A stretch of DNA of 33,281 nt from positions 1 through 33,281 of the forward strand of contig JBHLME010000045.1 in the NCBI GenBank assembly GCA_048938445.1, given 5' to 3'. A model generated the notes under the pieces. The model had not been told where the DNA came from. It saw nothing but the letters and a program-made list of their open reading frames with translations, and did no database searches. Shown piece by piece: positions 11,377 to 31,208 of this stretch (position 1 is its first letter; every line of letters starts with the position of its first letter). Position numbers and translations under genes: made by a program. The stretch is from Promethearchaeota archaeon. Its GTDB lineage: Archaea > Asgardarchaeota > Lokiarchaeia > Sigyniarchaeales > SOKP01.

Positions 11377-13869
11377 TTATTTTAATGGACGAGAGTTAGC
11401 CAAGAAAATTGGCCCAATAAATTGAGAGTAAAGTTTACTATAACCCTCTTGATTGCTGACAATTGCGACTAAATCACTCTCTTTCTGTGTATATGGCGCC
11501 AGAATTACTTCTTCAGCATCTCGAGTTACAGCATAAAATTCTCCAGAAGAAGTTAATTGACGGAATTGTATGTTTCCTAAAACTTTCATTTTATTTATGA
11601 TATCTCCGTATTGGTTTAAATCAAAATGAGAAGTTAACATGAACCTTACTGCTTTCTTCTGAAACGCATATTGGGAGATTGTTTGAAGGATATCAGGTTC
11701 TACCACGGGAGTCACTACAATAATAGATGATTTAACTCGATATATAGCATCCTTTATTACCCCTAAAAGTGCATCTCTTCCTACAACTGGCCATGTAGTC
11801 ACCTCTGCAATTTCAGGTATATTACTAGAAGCTTGATGAATGTCATTTAGTTTGCTTTCATTATTTTCTGCTAATTCATTAGCATCATCAATAGAATTCA
11901 TGAATTGTAAAGTGAAATCAGCTATTGCATCCTTTACATTCTGTATCGTATCCTTGGTTGTATTATCTAGACTTTTCTGTAAATTCAATGCATTATTTTG
12001 ATATTTAGTCTTGTGATCTTCAAGCATATTGCTCAAATTGTCGTTCATTTGAGCGGCCTCATTATCCCAAAACTTGATTTCTGCATTTATTTTCTCTGAT
12101 GTGATTTTTTTAGATTTATCAAAATCAGCTCGGATTTTAGCTTGTCGGTCATTAATAAGTTTTTCATGTTTTGCTTTATATTCATTGAGTTTATTGATTT
12201 GATTTGTTATTTCTGTTGTAATATTATTTTTTGCTTCGTTAAATTTCTGATCTACTTCTTTTACCCAGTTTGTATTTTTATTCTTGATATCATTATCAAA
12301 ATCCGTGTAATGACTTAAAGAATCATTTTTATGAGTATTAATTGCTCCTTCATATTGAGAATGGTGAGTTTTTAATGAATTTTCTAAAGAATCCTTTAAT
12401 TTTAAACTCGTATCAGAGCAGTCTTTTACTCCACTTTGAAGAGTATTATCAATTTCAGTTGACATGTCTGTTGCTAAACTAGCTAATTGAGCATCAAGAG
12501 TTTCTTGTGCTTTTTTATTTAAATCACTTGTTTCCGTAGCAAGACTATCATTTTCTTTTGTCATGACACCAGTTACATCTGATTTAATCGCTTCAGTAGT
12601 TTCTTTTGTATTTTGCACGTAATCCTCCGTGATAGTGTTAAAATTTGGTCTTAACGATTCGGTTATTTGAATTACATCTCTAATCGTAATTTCATGTCTT
12701 GCTTTATATTTCTTCTTTTTACCAGCCCAGAAAAATCCTTTTTTAGCCATATCTTCTGAAAAATCAGAAAATCTATTCGCTTGTTCAATCAAGTTATTTA
12801 CTAATGTTTTTGAATTTTCTCTAAACGTATTGCATTGCTCTATTAAAGTTCTATGTCTCTCATCTACAAGGGATTTTAGATCAATTTGAAGAGTATCAGT
12901 AGTGCCCTTTACATGAGTTTTATGTTCTGCTAATAATCTTGAGATTTTATCTTTTAAATCTTCAACGACTTTATTCATCCGTTCTAAATATTTTTCTAAT
13001 ATTTGTTCCATTCTTGGTTTGAGGTCATTTGCTATGTCTTTATGTCTCTCTACATGTTCATCTAGATCCTTTTTTAGTTCACTATCTAAATCACTTACAC
13101 GATTACCAAAATCGGACAAAAGATCGCTGATTAATTTTTCTAAATTTGATTTCCTGTTATTTATTGAAGTTTCATTTTCAGACACAAATGATTGAGAGAT
13201 AGACTTAAGATTTGCATTTAATCCATCATGAATAGTATGAGTATTTGCTTCTAAAGTCTTTGATTGACTATTTTGATCATCCTTTATCCCTGTTAACTCA
13301 TTGTCTAATTGTTCTATATCATTTTTTAATTCTGCAAAATCTTTTTCAATATTAGCATGAAGATCAGATTCAAGTGTTTTATTTGTGTCTGTAAATCTGG
13401 TCGTAGCACTATCAATTCGGTTCTTTTTATTTTCATTTTTAGAATCTGAATCTTGAAAAAAATCATTAATTTGATTTTTAACAGCAGTATCAACTTCAGT
13501 TAAACTTTTATTTTGTATCGATTCAAGCTTTTCAAATCTACTAGATTGATCTGCTAAAATAGCATCCTTTATCTTGCTAATTTCTTCCCTAAATAATTCA
13601 GATTCTTTAGTAAATAATCCAAAATAAGGTTCAAGTGGAATATATCTAGGAACCATTCCCTCTACTTTTTTAAGGAAACCCTTTTCAACTAAATTCTCCG
13701 TGATTTCTTCGACTTTCGCATATTCATATTCGTAGATTTCTTCTAATGTCATGAAAACTTCGCTAATAGTAGCTCTAGGCACTTTTAAATAAATTAAATA
13801 CACGTTAATATCATCTTCTGTAAAACCATAGCGAGTAAATATTTCCTTGGTAAATTCTTTGAGACTCAA
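11377..13869 (-). CDS. TrmB-like protein: N-terminal wHTH, very long coiled coil, C-terminal TrmB effector (PLD-like) domain
   Basis: N-terminal YGFTEDDINVYL...LVEKGFL...PRYIPLEP; about 600 aa of Pro-poor helical heptad-rich sequence; C-terminal WPVVGRDAL...KSSIIVVTP...TRDAEEVILAP. TTG start. Confidence 0.7.
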   Translation of the reverse strand: MSLKEFTKEIFTRYGFTEDDINVYLIYLKVPRATISEVFMTLEEIYEYEYAKVEEITENLVEKGFLKKVEGMVPRYIPLEPYFGLFTKESELFREEISKIKDAILADQSSRFEKLESIQNKSLTEVDTAVKNQINDFFQDSDSKNENKKNRIDSATTRFTDTNKTLESDLHANIEKDFAELKNDIEQLDNELTGIKDDQNSQSKTLEANTHTIHDGLNANLKSISQSFVSENETSINNRKSNLEKLISDLLSDFGNRVSDLDSELKKDLDEHVERHKDIANDLKPRMEQILEKYLERMNKVVEDLKDKISRLLAEHKTHVKGTTDTLQIDLKSLVDERHRTLIEQCNTFRENSKTLVNNLIEQANRFSDFSEDMAKKGFFWAGKKKKYKARHEITIRDVIQITESLRPNFNTITEDYVQNTKETTEAIKSDVTGVMTKENDSLATETSDLNKKAQETLDAQLASLATDMSTEIDNTLQSGVKDCSDTSLKLKDSLENSLKTHHSQYEGAINTHKNDSLSHYTDFDNDIKNKNTNWVKEVDQKFNEAKNNITTEITNQINKLNEYKAKHEKLINDRQAKIRADFDKSKKITSEKINAEIKFWDNEAAQMNDNLSNMLEDHKTKYQNNALNLQKSLDNTTKDTIQNVKDAIADFTLQFMNSIDDANELAENNESKLNDIHQASSNIPEIAEVTTWPVVGRDALLGVIKDAIYRVKSSIIVVTPVVEPDILQTISQYAFQKKAVRFMLTSHFDLNQYGDIINKMKVLGNIQFRQLTSSGEFYAVTRDAEEVILAPYTQKESDLVAIVSNQEGYSKLYSQFIGPIFLANSRPLK

Positions 13870-22253: not shown

Positions 22254-22676
22254 ATGATACTTTTTCCCTTCGCAAATTTAATAGTAGGCATTTTACTTTT
22301 TATTGTTGGTGTTATCTTTCATTGGATCGGACAATTAGTTTCTGTAATTAATTGGGAGTTTGCTAGGAAGATTGGGATTCGGGAAAAGGAAACTTTACCC
22401 GAATTTGAGGTATATGAACGTGGTATGGCTATAGCTGAAGCATTAATAGGATGGATTTACGGTATCGCAGCAATAATTTTAATTTATAATATTACAGGAG
22501 CTTTTTTTTTAGCGTGGTTCCCTGGTTCAATATTGATTTATCACAGTTTGAGCTATTGGTTTTGGATTGGATATCAAAATAAAACTGGAAATCCTACTGC
22601 TTCACAAAAATATAGAATTACTTGGTCTCTCTTGAACTTTATAACAGGAATTCTATGCATTTTGATTGCTTGGTAA
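22254..22676 (+). CDS. Small integral membrane protein of unknown function (about 4 TM helices)
   Basis: Four hydrophobic segments; no recognised motif. Confidence 0.7.
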   Translation: MILFPFANLIVGILLFIVGVIFHWIGQLVSVINWEFARKIGIREKETLPEFEVYERGMAIAEALIGWIYGIAAIILIYNITGAFFLAWFPGSILIYHSLSYWFWIGYQNKTGNPTASQKYRITWSLLNFITGILCILIAW

Positions 22677-22712: not shown

Positions 22713-24287
22713 CTATTTAAAAGCTTGCATTATATTTCTAGCAACGGCATAACCACTCATCGTAACAGTAGTAATGCCTCCTCCTGGAAAAACCCATTGC
22801 CCCGCTAATCGAACATTTTTTAAGGGGGTCTTTTGCATTATTCGATCTTTCATGAAAGTATCGGGTTTAGTTTCCCAACCAAGATGACTTCCGCCAAAAT
22901 TACTTGTAGCATTAATATACGTAAGAGGTGTTGCAAGTTCAGCAACCTCAACATGTTCTGCGAGGTTTTCAATTTTAAATGACTTAGATAATACATTTAT
23001 AAAGTATTGGATCAATCTGCGCTTTTCTTGTTCGTAAGATTCTAATCTATTTCCATTAGAATCTAGAAAATCCATCCAAGCTTCATAGTATGAAGGATAA
23101 GTTATAGTAACTACACTTTTCCCAGGAGGGCAACAATTTTCATCGATATTACTATAAATACTAATAATTTCTAAAGGCATTTTACGAAAATCACGCTTAT
23201 ATACACATTTATTGACGTTTTCAGGAGTATTGGGATTTCTACCGTAAATCCAAATCTCATAATCTTCTATACCTTTTTTTTTCAAATCGATATCAAGCCC
23301 TAAAAAAAGGGTAACCGAACTGTTAGAAGGACGTCTATTTAATAATTTATTTACATATTTTTTTGGTAAAGTACCTTTAGGGCATAATTCGGTAACAAAT
23401 TGATGGACATCAGAAGCTACCACAAATTGTTGTGCAATTAAAGATTTCTCTTCCCAATTTTCATTTTGAACATGCAAATTAAGTGCATGTTTCCCTGAAA
23501 TATCAAATGAAACTGCTTTAGTATTTAAAATGAGAGTCCCATTGTTTTGAACAAATACACTACCAAGTTTATTTGTTAAAACTCCTCCTCCTCCTCTTAT
23601 ATAATAGGCTCCTGCTAATCTGATTGTAAATTCCATCAATAGATATACTATTGCTGTAAAATCTTCTGGAAATGTGGCTAAACTAGCGACAAGATAATAT
23701 AGAGTCTCCCTTGCGGCTTGATCTTTAATATATTCTTCAATAATCTCTTTAACACTCGATTTACTCGTTTTTAAAAATTTGGTTAATGTTTTCATATTTT
23801 TCAATAAAAAAGCAATCATTTTGCGGGAAGATTCTTGCTCCCCCATGTCTAAAAGGAATCTCACAACTTTTTCATAATTTATAAAGAAATTCCTAATTCC
23901 CTCCTCTTCACCTGGAAAGAATTTAGATAATTTACTAATGTACTCTTTTAGGGCCATTGGAATAATAAAATCAATATTATTCTTTAAATCAATCCAATGA
24001 ACAAACTCCTTGAGTGGAATGAATTCTAATTCGTTAAAATCCATAAATTCACTCAAAATGTTTTCAATAGGACCTCCTTTCCCTGCACTATTAATAAAGT
24101 GAACCCCTGCATCGAAGGTAAAATCACCTCTCTGAATATTAACACAACAACCTCCAACATATGAATTTTTTTCTACAATAGCGGTTCTATATCCATTTTT
24201 AGCCAATATATTCCCACAAATAAGTCCAGATACTCCGGCTCCAACAATAATTGCGTCATATTCTTCATTTTTTTCTTTTTCATTCAT
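22713..24287 (-). CDS. Phytoene desaturase (CrtI/CrtISO/RetSat)-family FAD oxidoreductase
   Basis: IIVGAGVSGL Rossmann motif, GGCC..FTFDAG, ATPLTY, and C-terminal LAGQWVFPGGGITTVTMSG. Confidence 0.88.
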   Translation of the reverse strand: MNEKEKNEEYDAIIVGAGVSGLICGNILAKNGYRTAIVEKNSYVGGCCVNIQRGDFTFDAGVHFINSAGKGGPIENILSEFMDFNELEFIPLKEFVHWIDLKNNIDFIIPMALKEYISKLSKFFPGEEEGIRNFFINYEKVVRFLLDMGEQESSRKMIAFLLKNMKTLTKFLKTSKSSVKEIIEEYIKDQAARETLYYLVASLATFPEDFTAIVYLLMEFTIRLAGAYYIRGGGGVLTNKLGSVFVQNNGTLILNTKAVSFDISGKHALNLHVQNENWEEKSLIAQQFVVASDVHQFVTELCPKGTLPKKYVNKLLNRRPSNSSVTLFLGLDIDLKKKGIEDYEIWIYGRNPNTPENVNKCVYKRDFRKMPLEIISIYSNIDENCCPPGKSVVTITYPSYYEAWMDFLDSNGNRLESYEQEKRRLIQYFINVLSKSFKIENLAEHVEVAELATPLTYINATSNFGGSHLGWETKPDTFMKDRIMQKTPLKNVRLAGQWVFPGGGITTVTMSGYAVARNIMQAFK

Positions 24288-24303
24288 AATTTAAATTACC
24301 ACT

Positions 24304-26700
24304 TTATTGTACTATAAAACTATCTATTTCTTGAGCTGCTTTCCTAGAAATACCGATAATAGGACTAAAATCCTCCTTTTTTTCCTTAGTTAAGATATTT
24401 TGACTTGTAAAAACATTGGAATATCCCTTGACTTTCATACCCACATGTACTTCAAATTTGAGGCCTTTAAAGGCAATATATACCGCATTAAATTTTCTGC
24501 ACAAATCTTCTAGAATTAAATCATCTCCTAAGGTACTATTCAATTTAAGACTAGTATTTGATAACACAAGATTAGAAATTTCGCGATCAATTACTTCCTT
24601 AGGAAGGGCAGATGTCTCTATATTTTGATATAATGAACTTGCAATTATAGATTTTTTCTCAAATAGCGATACTTCGTATCCTAAATTAGCCAGAAAATAA
24701 GAAGTTGTTAATCCATTTACTCCTGCTCCTATAACTGCAATTTTTTTGCCGTTAGGGGGATTTAAGGGTACATTTTCTATCATTTCTTTTGTGTAATTTG
24801 CAATCCATCTATGTAATTTTTTAATTTGAACAGGATTATCTGAAAAAGTATTCCGATAACATACTTTTTGACAATATTTATCTGCTGGACATAAATAACC
24901 AGAAATCTCAGGTAAAGGATTCATTTGGTGAATTGACTTTATAGCACCAGAAAAATTTCCTACTTCAATCCTTCGCATGAAAAGAGGGATATCTATCCCG
25001 GCGGGACATACCTGACATGGACGATCTTCACAATATTGACATTTTCGAGCGAGTATTTTAGCATTTTCTGCATTATCCTCTAAGGAATCTATTATAAGTG
25101 GTGCCGAATTATACTTAATTTTTTTTATATAATTTTTCTTAAAGGAAATTGGAGTAAAAATTTTTAATCCCATTTCTCTCATAATAACATTAGCTACACC
25201 AATACCTGATGCACATACTGCTGGGGCACCCATTCCCATTGTTGTCGAGTCCCCACAAGCATAAAGATTCTTCCAACCAGTTTTTGCATGTAAACGTTTC
25301 ATTAGTTCTTGACCAATAGATTGTGTCGGCCCTCCTACACAACCACCATTTTTTAATGTATAACGCTCAATTGTTGTCGGTGTGGCAATATATAACATTC
25401 TAATAGCATCCTTAAAACCAGGAAATCGTTGCTCTATTTGATCAAATATTTGCTCTGCCATTTCATTTTTTCTTTGTATATAATTAGTAGATTGATATTC
25501 TTTATCATCAGGGCTAGGCCATACTTGATTAGGTGCTGGAGAAAAAATAGTAATAATATGTTCATCAGGAGGCCCCAAGGAGTCGTCTTCTAGAGTTGGA
25601 ATATAGAGCATTATATCCCCTGAATCAATTTGAGTGCTATCAGAAATAAAATATTCAACAGGATATAGATCCTTGGGAAATATACTTTTTGAAACAGCAG
25701 CATAAAGAACCATAGCCGGGTAAGTTACTCGTAAATTATCTACCCATTTGAGGTGTTTCTCTTTTATATGATCACGGTCAATTAGTTTCTTGTAGAGATT
25801 CCATATGGTTGCATCGGAGATCACTTTATCTGCTAAGATTTCTGTTCCATTGGCCAATCTAATTCCAATTGCCTCATGTTTCTTATTCATTAGGATTGTT
25901 TCAACTAAATGCCTATAAAGAATAGTTCCTCCAAATTTTTCGATAGCTTTTTCCAAAGTATTTGATAATATTTGAGCTCCTCCTGCAACATAAGAAGGTC
26001 CACCCTCATGATTATCCGTAAACATTGTAAGAGCCATCATTGCTGGAGTTTCTTCTACTAATGTATAGGAATAGCCAGAACAAAGCATATCAAAGAATTC
26101 TATTAGTTTCTGGTCTTTAATGTATGGTTTCATAATATCTTCTGCTGATTTGAATAATAATAATCCCAACTTCATGGTTCCAAGGGGATCTTTAAAAAAC
26201 ATTTTCATTTTCTGTGATAAAGACATTTCAGATGGTGGTGTAAGCATATCCCTGTCCTTAATAAATTTACGATAAAACTTGAACATGTACTCATACAAAT
26301 CCCGAATCTCTCGTTCTTGATTAGGAAAAATCCTAACAAATTCGTCAAGAAATTTATCTATATCTTTCCAAAATAAAATTTGGTTATCTAAGAACCACAT
26401 TCGATGAAAAATCTCTCTTGGAATTACTTTAATCTTTTCTTCCAATTGGTTCATAATATAGGAAAAAGGACTAAATCCTTTTTCCCCAAATCCGAAAATA
26501 GTAGCAGTGCCACAATCAAAAATCCGATCTTCTTTCTTAAAACTGGTGCATGAACCTCCAGGTTGATAATGTTGTTCAATAACTAATACATCTAACCCTC
26601 TTTTTGAGAGAAGCGAAGCTGCAGTAAGACCACCCAGACCGGCACCTATTATAATAATTTGGTATTTATTCTTTAAAATAGCATTATTAATTATTACCAT
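24304..26700 (-). CDS. CrtI-family FAD oxidoreductase fused to a GltD/PreT-like Fe-S domain and a truncated second dinucleotide-binding domain
   Basis: N-terminal IIGAGLGGL...ATPTTIERY...YACGDSTTMGMG. C-terminal CQYCEDRPCQVCPAGIDIP...NPLPEISGYLCP...CQKVC, then IAVIGAGVNGL. Confidence 0.88.
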   Translation of the reverse strand: MVIINNAILKNKYQIIIIGAGLGGLTAASLLSKRGLDVLVIEQHYQPGGSCTSFKKEDRIFDCGTATIFGFGEKGFSPFSYIMNQLEEKIKVIPREIFHRMWFLDNQILFWKDIDKFLDEFVRIFPNQEREIRDLYEYMFKFYRKFIKDRDMLTPPSEMSLSQKMKMFFKDPLGTMKLGLLLFKSAEDIMKPYIKDQKLIEFFDMLCSGYSYTLVEETPAMMALTMFTDNHEGGPSYVAGGAQILSNTLEKAIEKFGGTILYRHLVETILMNKKHEAIGIRLANGTEILADKVISDATIWNLYKKLIDRDHIKEKHLKWVDNLRVTYPAMVLYAAVSKSIFPKDLYPVEYFISDSTQIDSGDIMLYIPTLEDDSLGPPDEHIITIFSPAPNQVWPSPDDKEYQSTNYIQRKNEMAEQIFDQIEQRFPGFKDAIRMLYIATPTTIERYTLKNGGCVGGPTQSIGQELMKRLHAKTGWKNLYACGDSTTMGMGAPAVCASGIGVANVIMREMGLKIFTPISFKKNYIKKIKYNSAPLIIDSLEDNAENAKILARKCQYCEDRPCQVCPAGIDIPLFMRRIEVGNFSGAIKSIHQMNPLPEISGYLCPADKYCQKVCYRNTFSDNPVQIKKLHRWIANYTKEMIENVPLNPPNGKKIAVIGAGVNGLTTSYFLANLGYEVSLFEKKSIIASSLYQNIETSALPKEVIDREISNLVLSNTSLKLNSTLGDDLILEDLCRKFNAVYIAFKGLKFEVHVGMKVKGYSNVFTSQNILTKEKKEDFSPIIGISRKAAQEIDSFIVQ

Positions 26701-26779
26701 ATAACTTCTTATTAAGATATTTTTATAAAACTTTTACTTTAAAACTATAAATGGGCTCTTCAAAATAGTTTTAATTAGT

Positions 26780-27997
26780 TCATAATCCTAAGCAATATAA
26801 TATTGCCAATAAAAGACTACATAATAGTGATGTTTTGAGATAATCATTTCCTTTTATTGGAAGAGTATTAAAGAAAGCAACACTTAATCCACTTATTAAT
26901 AAAATTAGAAGACTTAAATCTAAAATAGTATATAGAAAGAAGGAGACTATTAATATACTAATGATAAATCCCATAAAACCTTCCAGAGTTTTAAGAAATA
27001 ATTTACGCTTTCCAAAAGTTACCTCAAAAAACTTACTAATTGGAATACTAATTAATGTAAAAGCTATTCCAGCAATGACTATTCTTATATTGATAAAATT
27101 GAAAATTATCATAGTTAAGAAAATAGATAATAATATTAATGCAATTTCGAGATGTTTCCGTTCGTTACTTTCTTTAAGATAAGGTATTATTTTTCTCAAA
27201 ATAGCCCCTTCATTATTCTTATTTAAATATTTATTAAAATCTATTAATAATATGATGATAGATGACGACCCTAGTATAATAAGAGTTAATAAAGGTAGAT
27301 AAAAATATAAAATTAATAGAATTATTAAACTAGGATTTAAAAACAACTTCCACCACACTTTTTTTAGTTCATCTTTTATTTTAATTTCATTAAATTGATT
27401 TATGTTATAAAAAGCCATCACAATAATATACCCTAAAATAATCCATGTAAATATAATGAATTGATTTGCTGGATAATAAGGATAATAATACCAAATAGCA
27501 TATCCAATAAGAGGATAAATTAATATTGCTAATAAATTTGATACTTTACAAGCTTGCCTGAATGTTATTAATATTACTAATACATAGAGCATGAAAACAA
27601 GAATTATTAAATCATACAAAGCAAAATTTATTATGTAGGTGATTAAAAGCGCCATGGATGTGGCAAGACCTTGCCCTCCTTTAAATTTTATATAAAAGGG
27701 GAAAATATGTCCTATTATAGCTGCATATCCTGCAATTTGCATTATCATCAAATTTGCTTGGAGTAAATATGCAATCCATATTGCTAATAATCCTTTAAAA
27801 AAATCATAAAATCCTGTCATGACCGCATACTTTACACCTAAAACATGGTACACATTAGAGGTACCCGCATTTTTTGTTCCAACTGTTCTAATATCAATAC
27901 CCTTCATGCGTCCAATAATATATGCAGGTAAAATTGAGCCAAGGATATATCCAATAATTATTGAAAGAATTGCAATCACAATCACGTTAGCAGTCAT
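26780..27997 (-). CDS. plsY: PlsY-like glycerol-3-phosphate acyltransferase fused to a degenerate dolichol/phytol-kinase-like membrane domain
   Basis: GYILGSI, DIRTVGTKNAGTSNV, DFFKG and GHIFPFYIKFKGGQGLAT; C-terminal FGKRK..KTLEG motif. Confidence 0.8.
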   Translation of the reverse strand: MTANVIVIAILSIIIGYILGSILPAYIIGRMKGIDIRTVGTKNAGTSNVYHVLGVKYAVMTGFYDFFKGLLAIWIAYLLQANLMIMQIAGYAAIIGHIFPFYIKFKGGQGLATSMALLITYIINFALYDLIILVFMLYVLVILITFRQACKVSNLLAILIYPLIGYAIWYYYPYYPANQFIIFTWIILGYIIVMAFYNINQFNEIKIKDELKKVWWKLFLNPSLIILLILYFYLPLLTLIILGSSSIIILLIDFNKYLNKNNEGAILRKIIPYLKESNERKHLEIALILLSIFLTMIIFNFINIRIVIAGIAFTLISIPISKFFEVTFGKRKLFLKTLEGFMGFIISILIVSFFLYTILDLSLLILLISGLSVAFFNTLPIKGNDYLKTSLLCSLLLAILYCLGL

Positions 27998-28032
27998 GGT
28001 ATCATATTATTTTTTATCATTATTAATGTCTA

Positions 28033-29349
28033 TTAATTATTTTTATTTGAAAATACTAATAATCTCCAAAAAAACAAGATATAGAGGATTAATAGAAAAA
28101 TTGGTAAGATTGGATCAATAGGAAATATCGTCAAACCAATAACAACTCCAATTCCGAAAAACAATGTACCATATTGTGATATTCTATAAATCATCTTATA
28201 TGTTTGTTTAAATTTTCTTTTATTTTTATCCGATATAATATTCTTTAAATCTTCTTCGAGTTTTAATAAACCGGGAAGGGATATCATGTACCAAATAAGG
28301 AAATTTAAGAACCAAGAATCTGTAAAAGTAATTAACATTATCAGCATTGCCATCCCAAAGAACATTGAATAATTCTTTTCATTATTTGGCATCAAATAAA
28401 ATAAAATTAATATTATGATATATAATACAGGTGTTGAGATCACTAAAATCATAATTTCTGAGATTGAAAGAGAAAATGCACTAAAAAAGACAAAAATTAT
28501 TCTGGTTATACTTGTACTGGGATAATCTGAAAATTGTGAAGTGCTATTTTCTCTTATAAAACCTGTAATTAAATTAGGATATAATATAAAGTATAAAACA
28601 TTTAAAATAAAGGGTATCAGGAATCCAATTAAAGTTATGGCAATCTGCTTGCCTTCAATTTGAAATTTTTTATTTCTATATGAAAACGAAATCTTTAGTA
28701 ATATGGGAATTAGGAGAAAAGCAAATGGTTTATAGGCCATACTAATTCCAACTAATAAACCTACAATTAAATTAGCATATTTAATTTCATATCTCCTATT
28801 TTTTTCATTTTCTAATAATAAAACGACTAGAAGAATAATGAAGATGTAGATTTCGGTTACTTGCCCTATAAATAATAAGACAACTTGTAATGGTGCCATC
28901 AGACTAATAAGCAGCATGTCTCGTTTAATTTTCGTGTTAAATGATATTTTAAAAAATTTGGTAGATAAAATCAAAATGAGGTAAAATGAACAAATATGGA
29001 GAAAAGCCATTAAAATTGTATGAGCTATGAATGCTAATTCATAGGGGATCAAAATATAAGGAATAAAAAGTAATGAGAATATCGGTAAATACCTAAATGA
29101 CATGTCATTAACCACGGGATCATATAATTGTCCGGGATCTATTATAATTAATTTAGTGGATTCATAGAAAATTCTAAAATCATGAGAGATAAGAATATTT
29201 TCAAGTGGGATTATATTTGGAATTAAGATGAAACAGGTTATTGTAAAAATAACATAAATTAAAATTGCATATAGTGAAAGTTTAAGAGTTATCGATTTTT
29301 TAATATATCTATTACAAAATCTAATATCTTCTATAAATGATTCCAACAT
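28033..29349 (-). CDS. GT-C fold membrane glycosyltransferase, GT87/DUF2029-like
   Basis: DFRIFY after TM1, FRYLP, GQV and KP motifs; multiple TM helices. Confidence 0.75.
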   Translation of the reverse strand: MLESFIEDIRFCNRYIKKSITLKLSLYAILIYVIFTITCFILIPNIIPLENILISHDFRIFYESTKLIIIDPGQLYDPVVNDMSFRYLPIFSLLFIPYILIPYELAFIAHTILMAFLHICSFYLILILSTKFFKISFNTKIKRDMLLISLMAPLQVVLLFIGQVTEIYIFIILLVVLLLENEKNRRYEIKYANLIVGLLVGISMAYKPFAFLLIPILLKISFSYRNKKFQIEGKQIAITLIGFLIPFILNVLYFILYPNLITGFIRENSTSQFSDYPSTSITRIIFVFFSAFSLSISEIMILVISTPVLYIIILILFYLMPNNEKNYSMFFGMAMLIMLITFTDSWFLNFLIWYMISLPGLLKLEEDLKNIISDKNKRKFKQTYKMIYRISQYGTLFFGIGVVIGLTIFPIDPILPIFLLILYILFFWRLLVFSNKNN

Positions 29350-29426
29350 TTTATTTTTAAACCCAATATATAGAGTATAACCTTTTTAAATATAGATTTA
29401 TACTTTATAATCTAATTTTAATAATT

Positions 29427-30674
29427 TCATGTAATTTGCTTATTTATAATTTCAACCGCTTTTTCTATACCACCTGATGCTATAATTTCCTCTTTAATTT
29501 TTTGAGCATTTTCTTTATAATTTTGGTCAGAAATTATTTGCGTTAAAGCTTTCTGAATTTTTCCTTTTTTTTGTTTTTTAATCACTATTGCACATCCAGC
29601 TCGTTTTAATTTTGTTGCTATTGCGCCCTGTTCTATTCCAATAGGTATTGCTATTATTGGTCGTCCATAACTCAAAGCATCCAATGCAGTGTTCAAACCA
29701 CAATGGGAAATAAGGATCTCACATTCCTCAAAAATTTCGGGTTGCCTTAAATAATCAAATACAAGGGCATCTCTTTCAAGTTCTTTAACTTGATTTTCAT
29801 CAAGTAGTCCTGCGTGAACTACTATTGGTCGCAAACCTACTGCCTTAGAAGCTTGGACACATTTATGAATTAAACGATACCTAGATCCCAATAAAGTACC
29901 TAAAGAAATATATACATTTTTCACGTTGTCCTTAGGTAAATCGGGGCTAGTATAAGGTAAGACTGCACCATTTCTTAATGGTCCTAGATAAAACCAATCT
30001 TTATTCACTTTTGTTAATGGAAATTCAAGAGACTTCGTCTGTTGGGAGATTGTAGCTAAATTTGAAACTGCAAAATATCGCTTCATTCCAGTTCGTTTTT
30101 CCATATCCCATTTTTTACGCCAACTTTCTAACACTCGAGTATCACGTTTAAGAATGAAATCTGTAACCTTATAAACTCCTTTAAGATTGTGTATTCTCAT
30201 TTTAGAAATATTATATTTCCAGCTAGTGAAAAAAGGAGGGAGTTTAACATCCATTACTATCGCCATTGCATTGCAAATTGAAATAAATGGGATGTTTATG
30301 TGGTCTGCTACAAGAGCGACGGCAGCTTCTAATTGATCACATATAATATAATCGATACCCTCTCTTTCAATAACTTTAGGCAATTCTCTACATACAACAT
30401 CAGACCATTTATTTGTGAATCTTTTTTGCCAAACTCGTCCCATTCTAAGGCCTTTAAGTCTGGACATTTTGCTAGTTATTTTCTTTATACTCCCTTCAGG
30501 GAAGATATCCTTACCTATTGGTATAAAACTAAATTTTCTAATATAATTAGCACTATCTAATAATCCAATAAATTTTAAGTCAAGATTTTTTTTACTTAAT
30601 CTATGGGCAAGAGATATCATTGGATTAATATGCCCCTGCAATGGGGGGCAAATAAATGCTATAGTTTTTATCAT
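29427..30674 (-). CDS. GT1 UDP-glycosyltransferase, zeaxanthin glucosyltransferase CrtX/MGT-like
   Basis: PPLQGHINPM, DQLEAA, ISQ...LEFP..GPLR, YISLGTL, and PSPG-like RQPEI...ISHCGLNTALDAL.....EQ. Confidence 0.85.
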   Translation of the reverse strand: MIKTIAFICPPLQGHINPMISLAHRLSKKNLDLKFIGLLDSANYIRKFSFIPIGKDIFPEGSIKKITSKMSRLKGLRMGRVWQKRFTNKWSDVVCRELPKVIEREGIDYIICDQLEAAVALVADHINIPFISICNAMAIVMDVKLPPFFTSWKYNISKMRIHNLKGVYKVTDFILKRDTRVLESWRKKWDMEKRTGMKRYFAVSNLATISQQTKSLEFPLTKVNKDWFYLGPLRNGAVLPYTSPDLPKDNVKNVYISLGTLLGSRYRLIHKCVQASKAVGLRPIVVHAGLLDENQVKELERDALVFDYLRQPEIFEECEILISHCGLNTALDALSYGRPIIAIPIGIEQGAIATKLKRAGCAIVIKKQKKGKIQKALTQIISDQNYKENAQKIKEEIIASGGIEKAVEIINKQIT

Positions 30675-30930: not shown

Positions 30931-31071
30931 TTAGTCTTCAAATTCTTCCCAATCTCCATCATTTAGGTCCTCATCCGAATCATCATCATAATCGCCAATT
31001 TCTTCCTCGTATCGGTCCCAGAAATCTCTATTTTTTCCTTTTTTAGGTCCATATACATTTAATTTGACCAC
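30931..31071 (-). CDS. Small acidic, probably disordered protein (46 aa), not in the ORF track
   Basis: GTG start. Translates MVKLNVYGPKKGKNRDFWDRYEEEIGDYDDDSDEDLNDGDWEEFED-stop. Higher GC than the flanks; purine-rich AAGGGA upstream. Confidence 0.65.
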   Translation of the reverse strand: MVKLNVYGPKKGKNRDFWDRYEEEIGDYDDDSDEDLNDGDWEEFED

Positions 31072-31208
31072 TTTCTATTCCCTTACATTTTTATAATTAA
31101 ACATTACATGAACTAGTTATCAAATTTAATATCAAATAAGAAATATTTAAATATTATTATCCAACTGAATGTTGTTAGATTTTGAGTAATAAGATTTTAT
31201 CATTATTC

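What the first reader, a model, noticed from the sequence alone, without database searches (positions are those of the whole stretch)
22713..30674. Five-gene cluster for a glycosylated/acylated lipid or polyene: CrtX-like GT1, GT87-like GT-C, PlsY fusion, two CrtI-family enzymes
Seen: five co-oriented minus-strand genes with short gaps (77, 35, 79 and 16 bp). Established: CrtX glucosylates hydroxy-carotenoids; GT87 enzymes transfer sugar from polyprenyl-phosphate donors to glycolipids; PlsY acylates glycerol-3-phosphate; CrtI/CrtISO/RetSat enzymes desaturate, isomerise or saturate isoprenoid chains. Inference: these genes could form a pathway that changes the saturation of an isoprenoid or scavenged carotenoid, then glycosylates and acylates it. 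That would be a candidate undescribed Asgard glycolipid system. No crtB/crtE is in the window, so modification or catabolism is as plausible as de novo synthesis.
Basis: partly seen in the sequence, partly recalled or inferred. Interest (0 to 1): 0.75.

Follow-up and report, generated by a model that had tools for sequence, protein, structure and literature searches.

The report
Rearranged Asgard lipid-modifying gene module
The five genes are real but were found together only in this genome; what relatives keep is a smaller, apparently undescribed Asgard module, a membrane sugar-transferase beside a carotenoid-isomerase-type enzyme wired to iron-sulfur clusters, which probably modifies an unknown membrane lipid rather than making a carotenoid.

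Summary
ORFs, strand and gaps are confirmed. The five-gene set occurred in no other genome searched. The conserved part is smaller: this GT87 subclade lies within two genes of the 798-aa enzyme in 10 of 11 other genomes with the same ~800-aa form. In all 13 other members of its clade it lies beside an unknown 180-aa membrane protein X, which was not found in this genome. The 798-aa protein is a CrtH/CRTISO-clade flavin domain fused to a two-[4Fe-4S] NfnB/GltD module lacking the NAD(P)H domain. The PlsY domain lacks its glycerol-3-phosphate clamp. GT1 orthologs are rare and lie elsewhere. No crtB was found. Best reading (0.45): a rearranged copy of an Asgard module that reduces or isomerises a polyene/isoprenoid lipid and glycosylates a lipid, with later add-ons; substrate unknown. 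The scan found the fusion enzyme and the altered PlsY before on other DNA; the X-GT87-flavoenzyme linkage is new here.

The parts
29427..30674 (-). GT1 (nucleotide-sugar) glycosyltransferase, CrtX-like; occupies the place where gene X sits in relatives; probably a recent arrival
   Evidence: Pfam and NCBIfam; 29% to a Pantoea zeaxanthin glucosyltransferase; 4 of 400 phylum genomes including this one; orthologs not beside the module
28033..29349 (-). GT87 / PimE-like GT-C membrane glycosyltransferase, core of the module; D57, Y87, Q163, K207 and W346 invariant
   Evidence: PF09594; about 10 predicted TM segments; weak profile match to PimE 9DM5, E 0.002; invariant columns; PimE essential residues (PMC12041525); clade of 14 at 100/100
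26780..27997 (-). PlsY-like domain (about 27398-27973) fused to a membrane domain resembling CTP-dependent lipid kinases (about 26786-27364); G3P clamp lost, kinase-like motifs degenerate in this copy
   Evidence: Alignment to 5XJ5, residue roles (PMC5700162), column counts in 31 homologs. The kinase-family name rests on recalled motifs; no library hit
24304..26700 (-). CrtH/CRTISO-clade FAD domain (about 25171-26664) fused to a two-[4Fe-4S] domain (about 24781-25071) and a Rossmann remnant (about 24307-24759); NAD(P)H-binding domain deleted
   Evidence: AlphaFold pLDDT 91; NfnB 4YLF, about 165 residues unmatched; Cys and His/Gln/Glu columns
22713..24287 (-). Second CrtI-superfamily flavoprotein, in a clade found here only in Asgard genomes, away from CrtI, CrtD and CrtH
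   Evidence: the same position after the fusion is seen in G093 only
22254..22676 (+). 140-aa membrane protein of no known family, convergent with the cluster; same place in G093 (63% identical)

Best explanation
The window holds a rearranged, derived copy of an Asgard lipid-modification module whose conserved parts are a GT87 subclade, its usual partner X (not found here) and a CrtI-superfamily flavoenzyme. Shown by comparison: the linkage, the domain structure and the residue changes. Inferred mechanism: (1) the 798-aa enzyme takes low-potential electrons, probably from ferredoxin, through two [4Fe-4S] clusters to keep its FAD reduced, and uses it to hydrogenate or cis-trans isomerise C=C bonds of a polyene or isoprenoid lipid that the cell scavenges or makes by a non-CrtB route; (2) the 524-aa enzyme acts on a related bond; (3) the GT87 moves a sugar from a polyprenyl-phosphate donor onto a lipid hydroxyl at the outer membrane face; (4) the PlsY-like domain may acylate a non-phosphorylated hydroxyl with acyl-phosphate. 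GT1 and the PlsY fusion are lineage-specific additions that need not act on the same molecule.
For: Linkage: 10 of 11 other genomes with the ~800-aa form have this GT87 within two genes, in at least four gene orders. X is directly beside GT87 in 12 of 13 other clade members and one gene away in the 13th, and in 24 of 25 X loci of a second class. A CrtI-superfamily gene lies within three genes of the pair in 10 of 12 genomes of the window's class and in 7 of 21 widely fetched loci of the second class; the rough chance is 0.6% per locus (kin are not independent). Two non-orthologous flavoenzyme types fill the slot, which favours a functional link over shared descent. The fusion groups with CrtH and cyanobacterial CrtD at 100/98; CRTISO needs reduced FAD (PMC3382138). 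Seven Cys are conserved in 114-115 of 115 homologs. The GT87 keeps equivalents of PimE residues needed for activity. No crtB match here or in 15 of 18 module-carrying genomes.
Against: No substrate, product or expression evidence. 14 of 21 second-class X-GT87 loci and 2 of 12 first-class ones have no CrtI-like neighbour, so the GT87 often does without one. G045 and five genomes with the other form have the fusion without a GT87 neighbour in the DNA seen, as do four metagenome loci. Six of the ten linked genomes belong to one genus. X, otherwise always present with this GT87, was not found in this 96.5% complete genome. The C-terminal flavin motif GD is missing here and kept in only 11 of 90 short forms. 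The GT87 should face outward and the flavoenzymes inward, so a shared substrate must cross the membrane (inference from PimE).
Confidence: 0.45

Rival explanations
1. Co-location without a shared pathway: X-GT87 is a surface-glycosylation pair, and the flavoenzymes, GT1 and PlsY fusion are lipid-salvage genes gathered beside it that act on unrelated molecules.
For: X-GT87 is far more constant (24 of 25 loci) than its link to a flavoenzyme (7 of 21) in the second class. The fusion occurs without GT87 in other genomes and metagenome loci. GT1 and PlsY orthologs are mostly elsewhere. Runs of five close genes are not rare here.
Against: Two unrelated flavoenzyme types occupy the same neighbourhood in two classes and several gene orders, far above the rough 0.6% chance.
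Confidence: 0.27
2. One reading: all five genes convert a scavenged hydroxy-carotenoid into a desaturated or isomerised, glucosylated, further glycosylated and acylated product, like carotenoid glucoside esters of Thermus (recalled).
For: The GT1 groups near a Pantoea CrtX (both branches are long). The fusion lies in a clade of carotenoid enzymes. The PlsY domain keeps acyl-phosphate residues and has lost the G3P clamp, which fits a neutral acceptor. G137 has both the GT1 ortholog and a crtB-crtI cluster.
Against: The five-gene set was seen only here. None of the ten core-module genomes has the GT1 at E <= 1e-20. Cyanobacterial GT1s match as well as CrtX does (31-33%). The Thermus crt cluster encodes a lysophospholipid-acyltransferase-family protein, not PlsY. 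No PlsX was found to supply acyl-phosphate, and the fused kinase-like domain is degenerate.
Confidence: 0.17
3. The cluster is a decaying remnant of the module.
For: X not found; kinase-like motifs lost; departures from the consensus in the fusion's C-terminal part (S600, loss of the PGG and GD motifs).
Against: All five frames are intact with ordinary codon use. The GT87 catalytic columns and seven Cys are kept. The kinase-like loss is shared with G279 at 62% identity, so it is old.
Confidence: 0.11

Closest known systems
Carotenoid isomerase CrtH/CRTISO (TIGR02730) and cyanobacterial CrtD (TIGR02733)
   Same: Residues 13-510 of the 798-aa protein score best on TIGR02730 and form one clade with both families (100/98); same fold as 4REP and 4DGK.
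   Different: 283 bits against a cut-off of 587; about 29-30% identity to CrtH; fused Fe-S module; host without crtB; order within the clade unresolved.
NfnB / GltD / dihydropyrimidine dehydrogenase N-terminal module (4YLF, 5JCA, 2VDC, 1GT8)
   Same: Two-cluster Cys pattern with a non-Cys eighth position, followed by a Rossmann start.
   Different: The NAD(P)H-binding domain is deleted in the ~800-aa form (motif in 0 of 90 short and 25 of 25 long homologs); fused behind a CrtH-clade domain.
PimE / GT87 polyprenyl-phosphate-mannose transferases (9DM5; PMC12041525)
   Same: PF09594 over cut-off; equivalents of Y92, Q163 and W319 aligned; D58 and K195 equivalents placed by position and invariance.
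   Different: Only E 0.002 to PimE; donor sugar and acceptor unknown; paired with an unknown protein X and with flavoenzymes.
PlsY (Aquifex 5XJ5; PMC5700162)
   Same: N37, H92, G105 and a Thr/Ser at position 41 are kept.
   Different: K104 is Q, R45 is H, S35 is T, H177 and N180 are absent; 200-aa C-terminal fusion; no plsX found.
CrtX zeaxanthin glucosyltransferase (Pantoea, AJA71152.1)
   Same: 29% over the whole length, E 5e-57; same N-terminal His motif.
   Different: Long-branched clade of about 20 proteins; cyanobacterial GT1s are as close; no crtB, true crtI or crtZ-like gene in this genome.
Retinol saturase RetSat (recalled; no reference sequence obtained)
   Same: A CrtI-superfamily flavoenzyme that reduces a polyene C=C bond is the precedent for the reductase reading.
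   Different: Relationship not tested: no named RetSat was in the trees.

Membership tests
Carotenoid biosynthesis cluster (crtEBIY/X type) | Phytoene synthase CrtB in the cluster or genome | tested here: not met
   PF00494 in 0 of 1 genome, control rang in 8 of 14; genome 96.5% complete
Carotenoid biosynthesis cluster (crtEBIY/X type) | A true CrtI desaturase | tested here: not met
   Both enzymes are under the TIGR02734 cut-off and outside the CrtI clade; the best genome match to an Asgard CrtI is 25%
CrtH/CRTISO | Score over the TIGR02730 cut-off | tested here: not met
   283 vs 586.9 bits
CrtH/CRTISO | Groups with CrtH to the exclusion of cyanobacterial CrtD | tested here: inconclusive
   FastTree 0.69; unresolved three-way split in IQ-TREE
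CrtH/CRTISO | FADred-dependent prolycopene isomerisation | not testable with these tools
   Needs an assay
RetSat | Orthology to retinol saturase | not tested
   No named reference was obtained; paper search gave 0
PlsY (G3P acyltransferase) | G3P phosphate clamp S35/R45/K104/N180 and H177 | tested here: not met
   T41, H51, Q109, I199 and F196 in the window; K104 is Q in 28 of 31 homologs and K in none
PlsY (G3P acyltransferase) | Acyl-phosphate site H92, T41, G105, N37 | tested here: met
   H97, S47, G110, N43
CTP-dependent lipid kinase (SEC59/DGK1/VTE5), C-terminal domain | Library match and intact GD / K..EG / E / DN motifs (motifs recalled) | tested here: inconclusive
   No Pfam or NCBIfam match. 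D318, E377 and N386 are kept in 29 of 31 homologs and lost in this copy and in G279
GT87 / GT-C | PF09594 over cut-off, multi-TM, conserved catalytic-site residues | tested here: met
GT87 / GT-C | Polyprenyl-phosphate-mannose donor and glycolipid acceptor | not testable with these tools
   Needs an assay
CrtX | Orthology to CrtX and residence in a crt cluster | tested here: inconclusive
   Joins Pantoea CrtX in a tree with one named reference and long branches; not in a crtB cluster in any of the 4 genomes
NfnB/GltD-type module | Two [4Fe-4S] ligand sets | tested here: met
   C554, C557, C562, C565, C604, C610, C614 and H630
NfnB/GltD-type module | NAD(P)H-binding domain | tested here: not met
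   Deleted
TMEM164/YwaF-type acyltransferase (for X, absent from the window) | Fold | tested here: inconclusive
   Top VIA hit 9lw1, Z 7.3, rmsd 5.1, 168 aligned; within the range of helical chance hits

The most novel reading that the evidence does not exclude
Two Asgard classes share a pathway in which a ferredoxin-driven, CRTISO-clade flavoenzyme enzymatically hydrogenates scavenged carotenoids or related polyenes in anoxic sediment, and a GT-C enzyme with a new membrane partner (X) turns the product into an outer-leaflet glycolipid; this genome has added a GT1 and an acyl-phosphate acyltransferase, giving an acylated glycoside. It would be a new archaeal glycolipid class and a biological route to reduced carotenoid skeletons, usually ascribed to abiotic reduction (recalled).
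Probability: 0.15. Interest if true: 0.82.

Novelty: new variant of a known kind. Interest (0 to 1): 0.52.

Why it matters
Asgard membrane chemistry is barely known, and Asgard plsY genes are cited as a possible sign of bacterial-type lipids (PMC6431249, PMC13400652). This locus argues that such a PlsY is not a G3P acyltransferase and points to a conserved X-GT87-flavoenzyme module in two Asgard classes that predicts an unidentified modified glycolipid. X is labelled as present in the cultured Ca. Lokiarchaeum ossiferum (P0131), so lipidomics is feasible. The exact five-gene cluster matters less: it looks specific to this genome.

Tried and rejected
Co-transcription: no RNA run was listed, which is no evidence; the promoter scan is of bacterial type and gave 60 sites against 72 expected. 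X-GT87 binding: the complex prediction gave no verdict. Identity of X: no meaningful Pfam or NCBIfam family, no Foldseek hit at E <= 0.001, only a weak TMEM164 fold hit, 86 representatives with no named bridge, and an unnamed top Atlas cluster. No remnant of X was found in this genome. Naming the C-terminal domain of the PlsY fusion by library or plasmid search failed. A PlsY precedent in carotenoid clusters: the Thermus cluster has a different acyltransferase family and paper search gave 0. A retinal link: heliorhodopsin lies beside the GT87 in three genomes, but none was found here (the control rang nowhere). Recent transfer or misbinning: composition and codon use are ordinary. The single genome-contig scan used one protein and gave one locus, so bacterial neighbourhoods of the fusion rest on a few metagenome loci. 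No lycopene cyclase over cut-off. Paper searches listed no paper on this module; the library lacks most subscription papers.
Full report
Observation. The five minus-strand ORFs and the gaps of 77, 35, 79 and 16 bp are as described. Pfam and NCBIfam give GT1, GT87, PlsY-like and two CrtI-superfamily proteins, all below NCBIfam's curated cut-offs. Such a run is uncommon but not exceptional: 191 of 3904 ORFs lie in runs of five or more close co-oriented genes. Codon use is ordinary. The genome is 96.5% complete with 8.2% contamination.

The 798-aa gene. Residues 13-510 score best on the carotenoid isomerase model (283 bits, cut-off 587). Residues 544-798 match the Fe-S and flavin module of NfnB, GltD and dihydropyrimidine dehydrogenase, with about 165 residues of NfnB unmatched. 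In 115 aligned homologs (the window's protein and 114 of the 120 listed) seven Cys are conserved in 114-115 rows, and position 630 is His, Gln or Glu in 107, aligned with a Glu of NfnB. The NAD(P)H-binding motif is present in 25 of 25 long (~960 aa) and 0 of 90 short (~800 aa) forms; the closing GD flavin motif is in 25 of 25 and 11 of 90, and is missing here. Two metagenome homologs stop after the Fe-S domain (630-641 aa), so the clusters are the part always kept. The AlphaFold model is confident (pLDDT 91) and matches carotenoid desaturase folds best. Source labels include Asgard archaea, Methanomethylicus, Deltaproteobacteria, Anaerolineae and WOR-3. In an IQ-TREE of 42 rows chosen from the 126, the fusions, CrtH and cyanobacterial CrtD form one clade (100/98) with unresolved order, apart from CrtI (reference labels; three of the five 'CrtH' rows are under the cut-off). 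CRTISO needs reduced FAD for a non-redox reaction (PMC3382138, passages). I infer an electron wire from ferredoxin to the catalytic FAD; reductase and isomerase are not separable from sequence. An earlier agent reached the same reading in another genome (e1-5415341).

The other four genes. The 524-aa protein lies in a separate clade found here only in Asgard genomes. The GT87 keeps D57, Y87, Q163, K207 and W346 in 28 of 28 aligned homologs. In PimE, D58, Y92, Q163, K195 and W319 are needed for activity (PMC12041525, passages); three of these are aligned directly and two are placed by position. The PlsY domain keeps the acyl-phosphate residues but not the G3P clamp (roles from PMC5700162, passages; chain numbers are offset by one, my inference). 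Its C-terminal half carries motifs that I recall from CTP-dependent lipid kinases; no library names it. A stand-alone homolog (profile E 4e-5) lies 26 bp upstream of geranylgeranyl reductase, GGGP synthase and a UbiA gene on contig C47, which fits an isoprenoid-lipid role. The window and G279 are the only 2 of 31 homologs that lack D318, E377, N386, S283 and T286. Five earlier findings describe the altered PlsY fusion in other genomes; the degeneration in module-linked copies is new. The GT1 matches a Pantoea zeaxanthin glucosyltransferase at 29% and cyanobacterial GT1s at 31-33%.

Synteny. The fusion was found at E <= 1e-80 in 17 of 400 phylum genomes, this one included; two candidates per genome were scored. 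Twelve have the ~800-aa archaeal form (G279 as a 164-residue piece at a contig end, placed by its 84% identity). Of the 11 besides this genome, 10 have the same GT87 subclade within two genes, and G045 does not. Six of the ten are one genus; the rest are four other genera in three families. The five genomes with the other form show no GT87 neighbour, two of them at contig ends. The GT87 subclade (14 of 36 rows, 100/100) is tied to an unknown six-helix protein X of about 180 aa: directly adjacent in 12 of the 13 other members and one gene away in G042. In a second class X occurs in 24 of 87 genomes, and a GT87 adjoins it in 24 of 25 loci, the last being cut by a contig end. Fifteen weaker X paralog loci examined had no GT87 within 1.5 kb. 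A CrtI-superfamily gene lies within three genes of the pair in 10 of 12 genomes of the window's class and in 7 of 21 widely fetched loci of the second class. In 8 loci (G063, G055 and six of the second class) it is a different ~530-aa type with an SDR, often with SnoaL or DUF6992. The rough chance is 0.6% per locus (4 such genes in 3904 ORFs), and kin inflate any test.

What is not conserved. X was not found in this genome; GT1 stands in its place. GT1 orthologs occur in 4 of 400 genomes, this one included: G060 and G137 in unrelated contexts, G001 cut by a contig end. The PlsY fusion is common (72 of 151 genomes), but none of 29 other loci examined (1.5 kb flanks) had a module gene beside it; only G279 has the order GT87-PlsY-fusion. 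The 524-aa gene and the convergent 140-aa gene follow the fusion only in G093. G279's contig ends inside the fusion, so a four-gene match there cannot be excluded, though no 524-aa ortholog was found in that assembly.

Pathway context. No crtB, plsX, lycopene cyclase or true crtI was found. Archaeol genes, two polyprenyl synthases and a PlsC-type protein are present. Of 27 genomes tested, 4 have a crtB-crtI cluster; 3 of these are among the 18 module carriers, and in none is it at the module.

Verdict. Best reading 0.45; co-location without a shared pathway 0.27; the five-gene carotenoid-glycoside-ester pathway 0.17; decay 0.11. Asgard plsY genes are in print (PMC6431249 and PMC13400652, passages), as are crt genes of Ca. 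Kariarchaeum (PMC12137139, passages). Searches (listings only) showed no paper on the X-GT87-flavoenzyme module; supplements were not read. Preprint 10.1101/2025.05.16.653879 (passages) had nothing bearing on it.

Noticed in passing
window 30931-31074, minus strand: Small open frame of about 46 codons, very acidic (D/E-rich), between the metallo-beta-lactamase-fold gene and the GT1; possible GTG start.
   Followed up: no
L335 (G137:C10), L336 (G099:C66), L332 (G327:C16), L337 (G328:C2): Apparent carotenoid synthesis clusters in sediment-type Asgard genomes: crtB-like plus CrtI over cut-off in the two scanned. In G137 and G099 they sit among genes I recognise from recalled motifs as mevalonate-pathway and crtZ-like; in G328 beside lyeJ- and cruF-like genes (recalled).
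   Followed up: partly
L135:890-3946 (G042:C15): 1018-aa protein joining a PlsY-like domain to pyruvate-phosphate-dikinase-type domains, downstream of the module with UbiA, DUF362 and GtrA genes; could be a self-activating acyltransferase.
   Followed up: no
L180:661-1485, L304:8873-9694, L307:3165-4004: Heliorhodopsin directly beside the module's GT87 in three genomes.
   Followed up: partly
G000:C47:43480-47397: A homolog of the PlsY fusion's C-terminal domain heads the geranylgeranyl reductase, GGGP synthase, UbiA run.
   Followed up: partly
L120 (G093:C172): Two divergent copies of the fusion enzyme (62% and 52% to the window's) flank X-GT87.
   Followed up: no
L190:684-4108: A 630-aa CrtH-clade plus Fe-S-only form overlaps a second CrtI-like gene in a metagenome contig of 50% GC, so pairing of two such enzymes recurs.
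   Followed up: no
L119 / G279: The record title says Thorarchaeota, while the same sequence is placed in the window's own family by the genome search; source labels in this group are unreliable.
   Followed up: no
L170:2163-3522: PAZ-domain protein (possible Argonaute) next to a distant X paralog in G053.
   Followed up: no
window 11377-13869 (-): 830-aa protein with a TrmB-type helix-turn-helix and a long apolipoprotein-like helical region.
   Followed up: no
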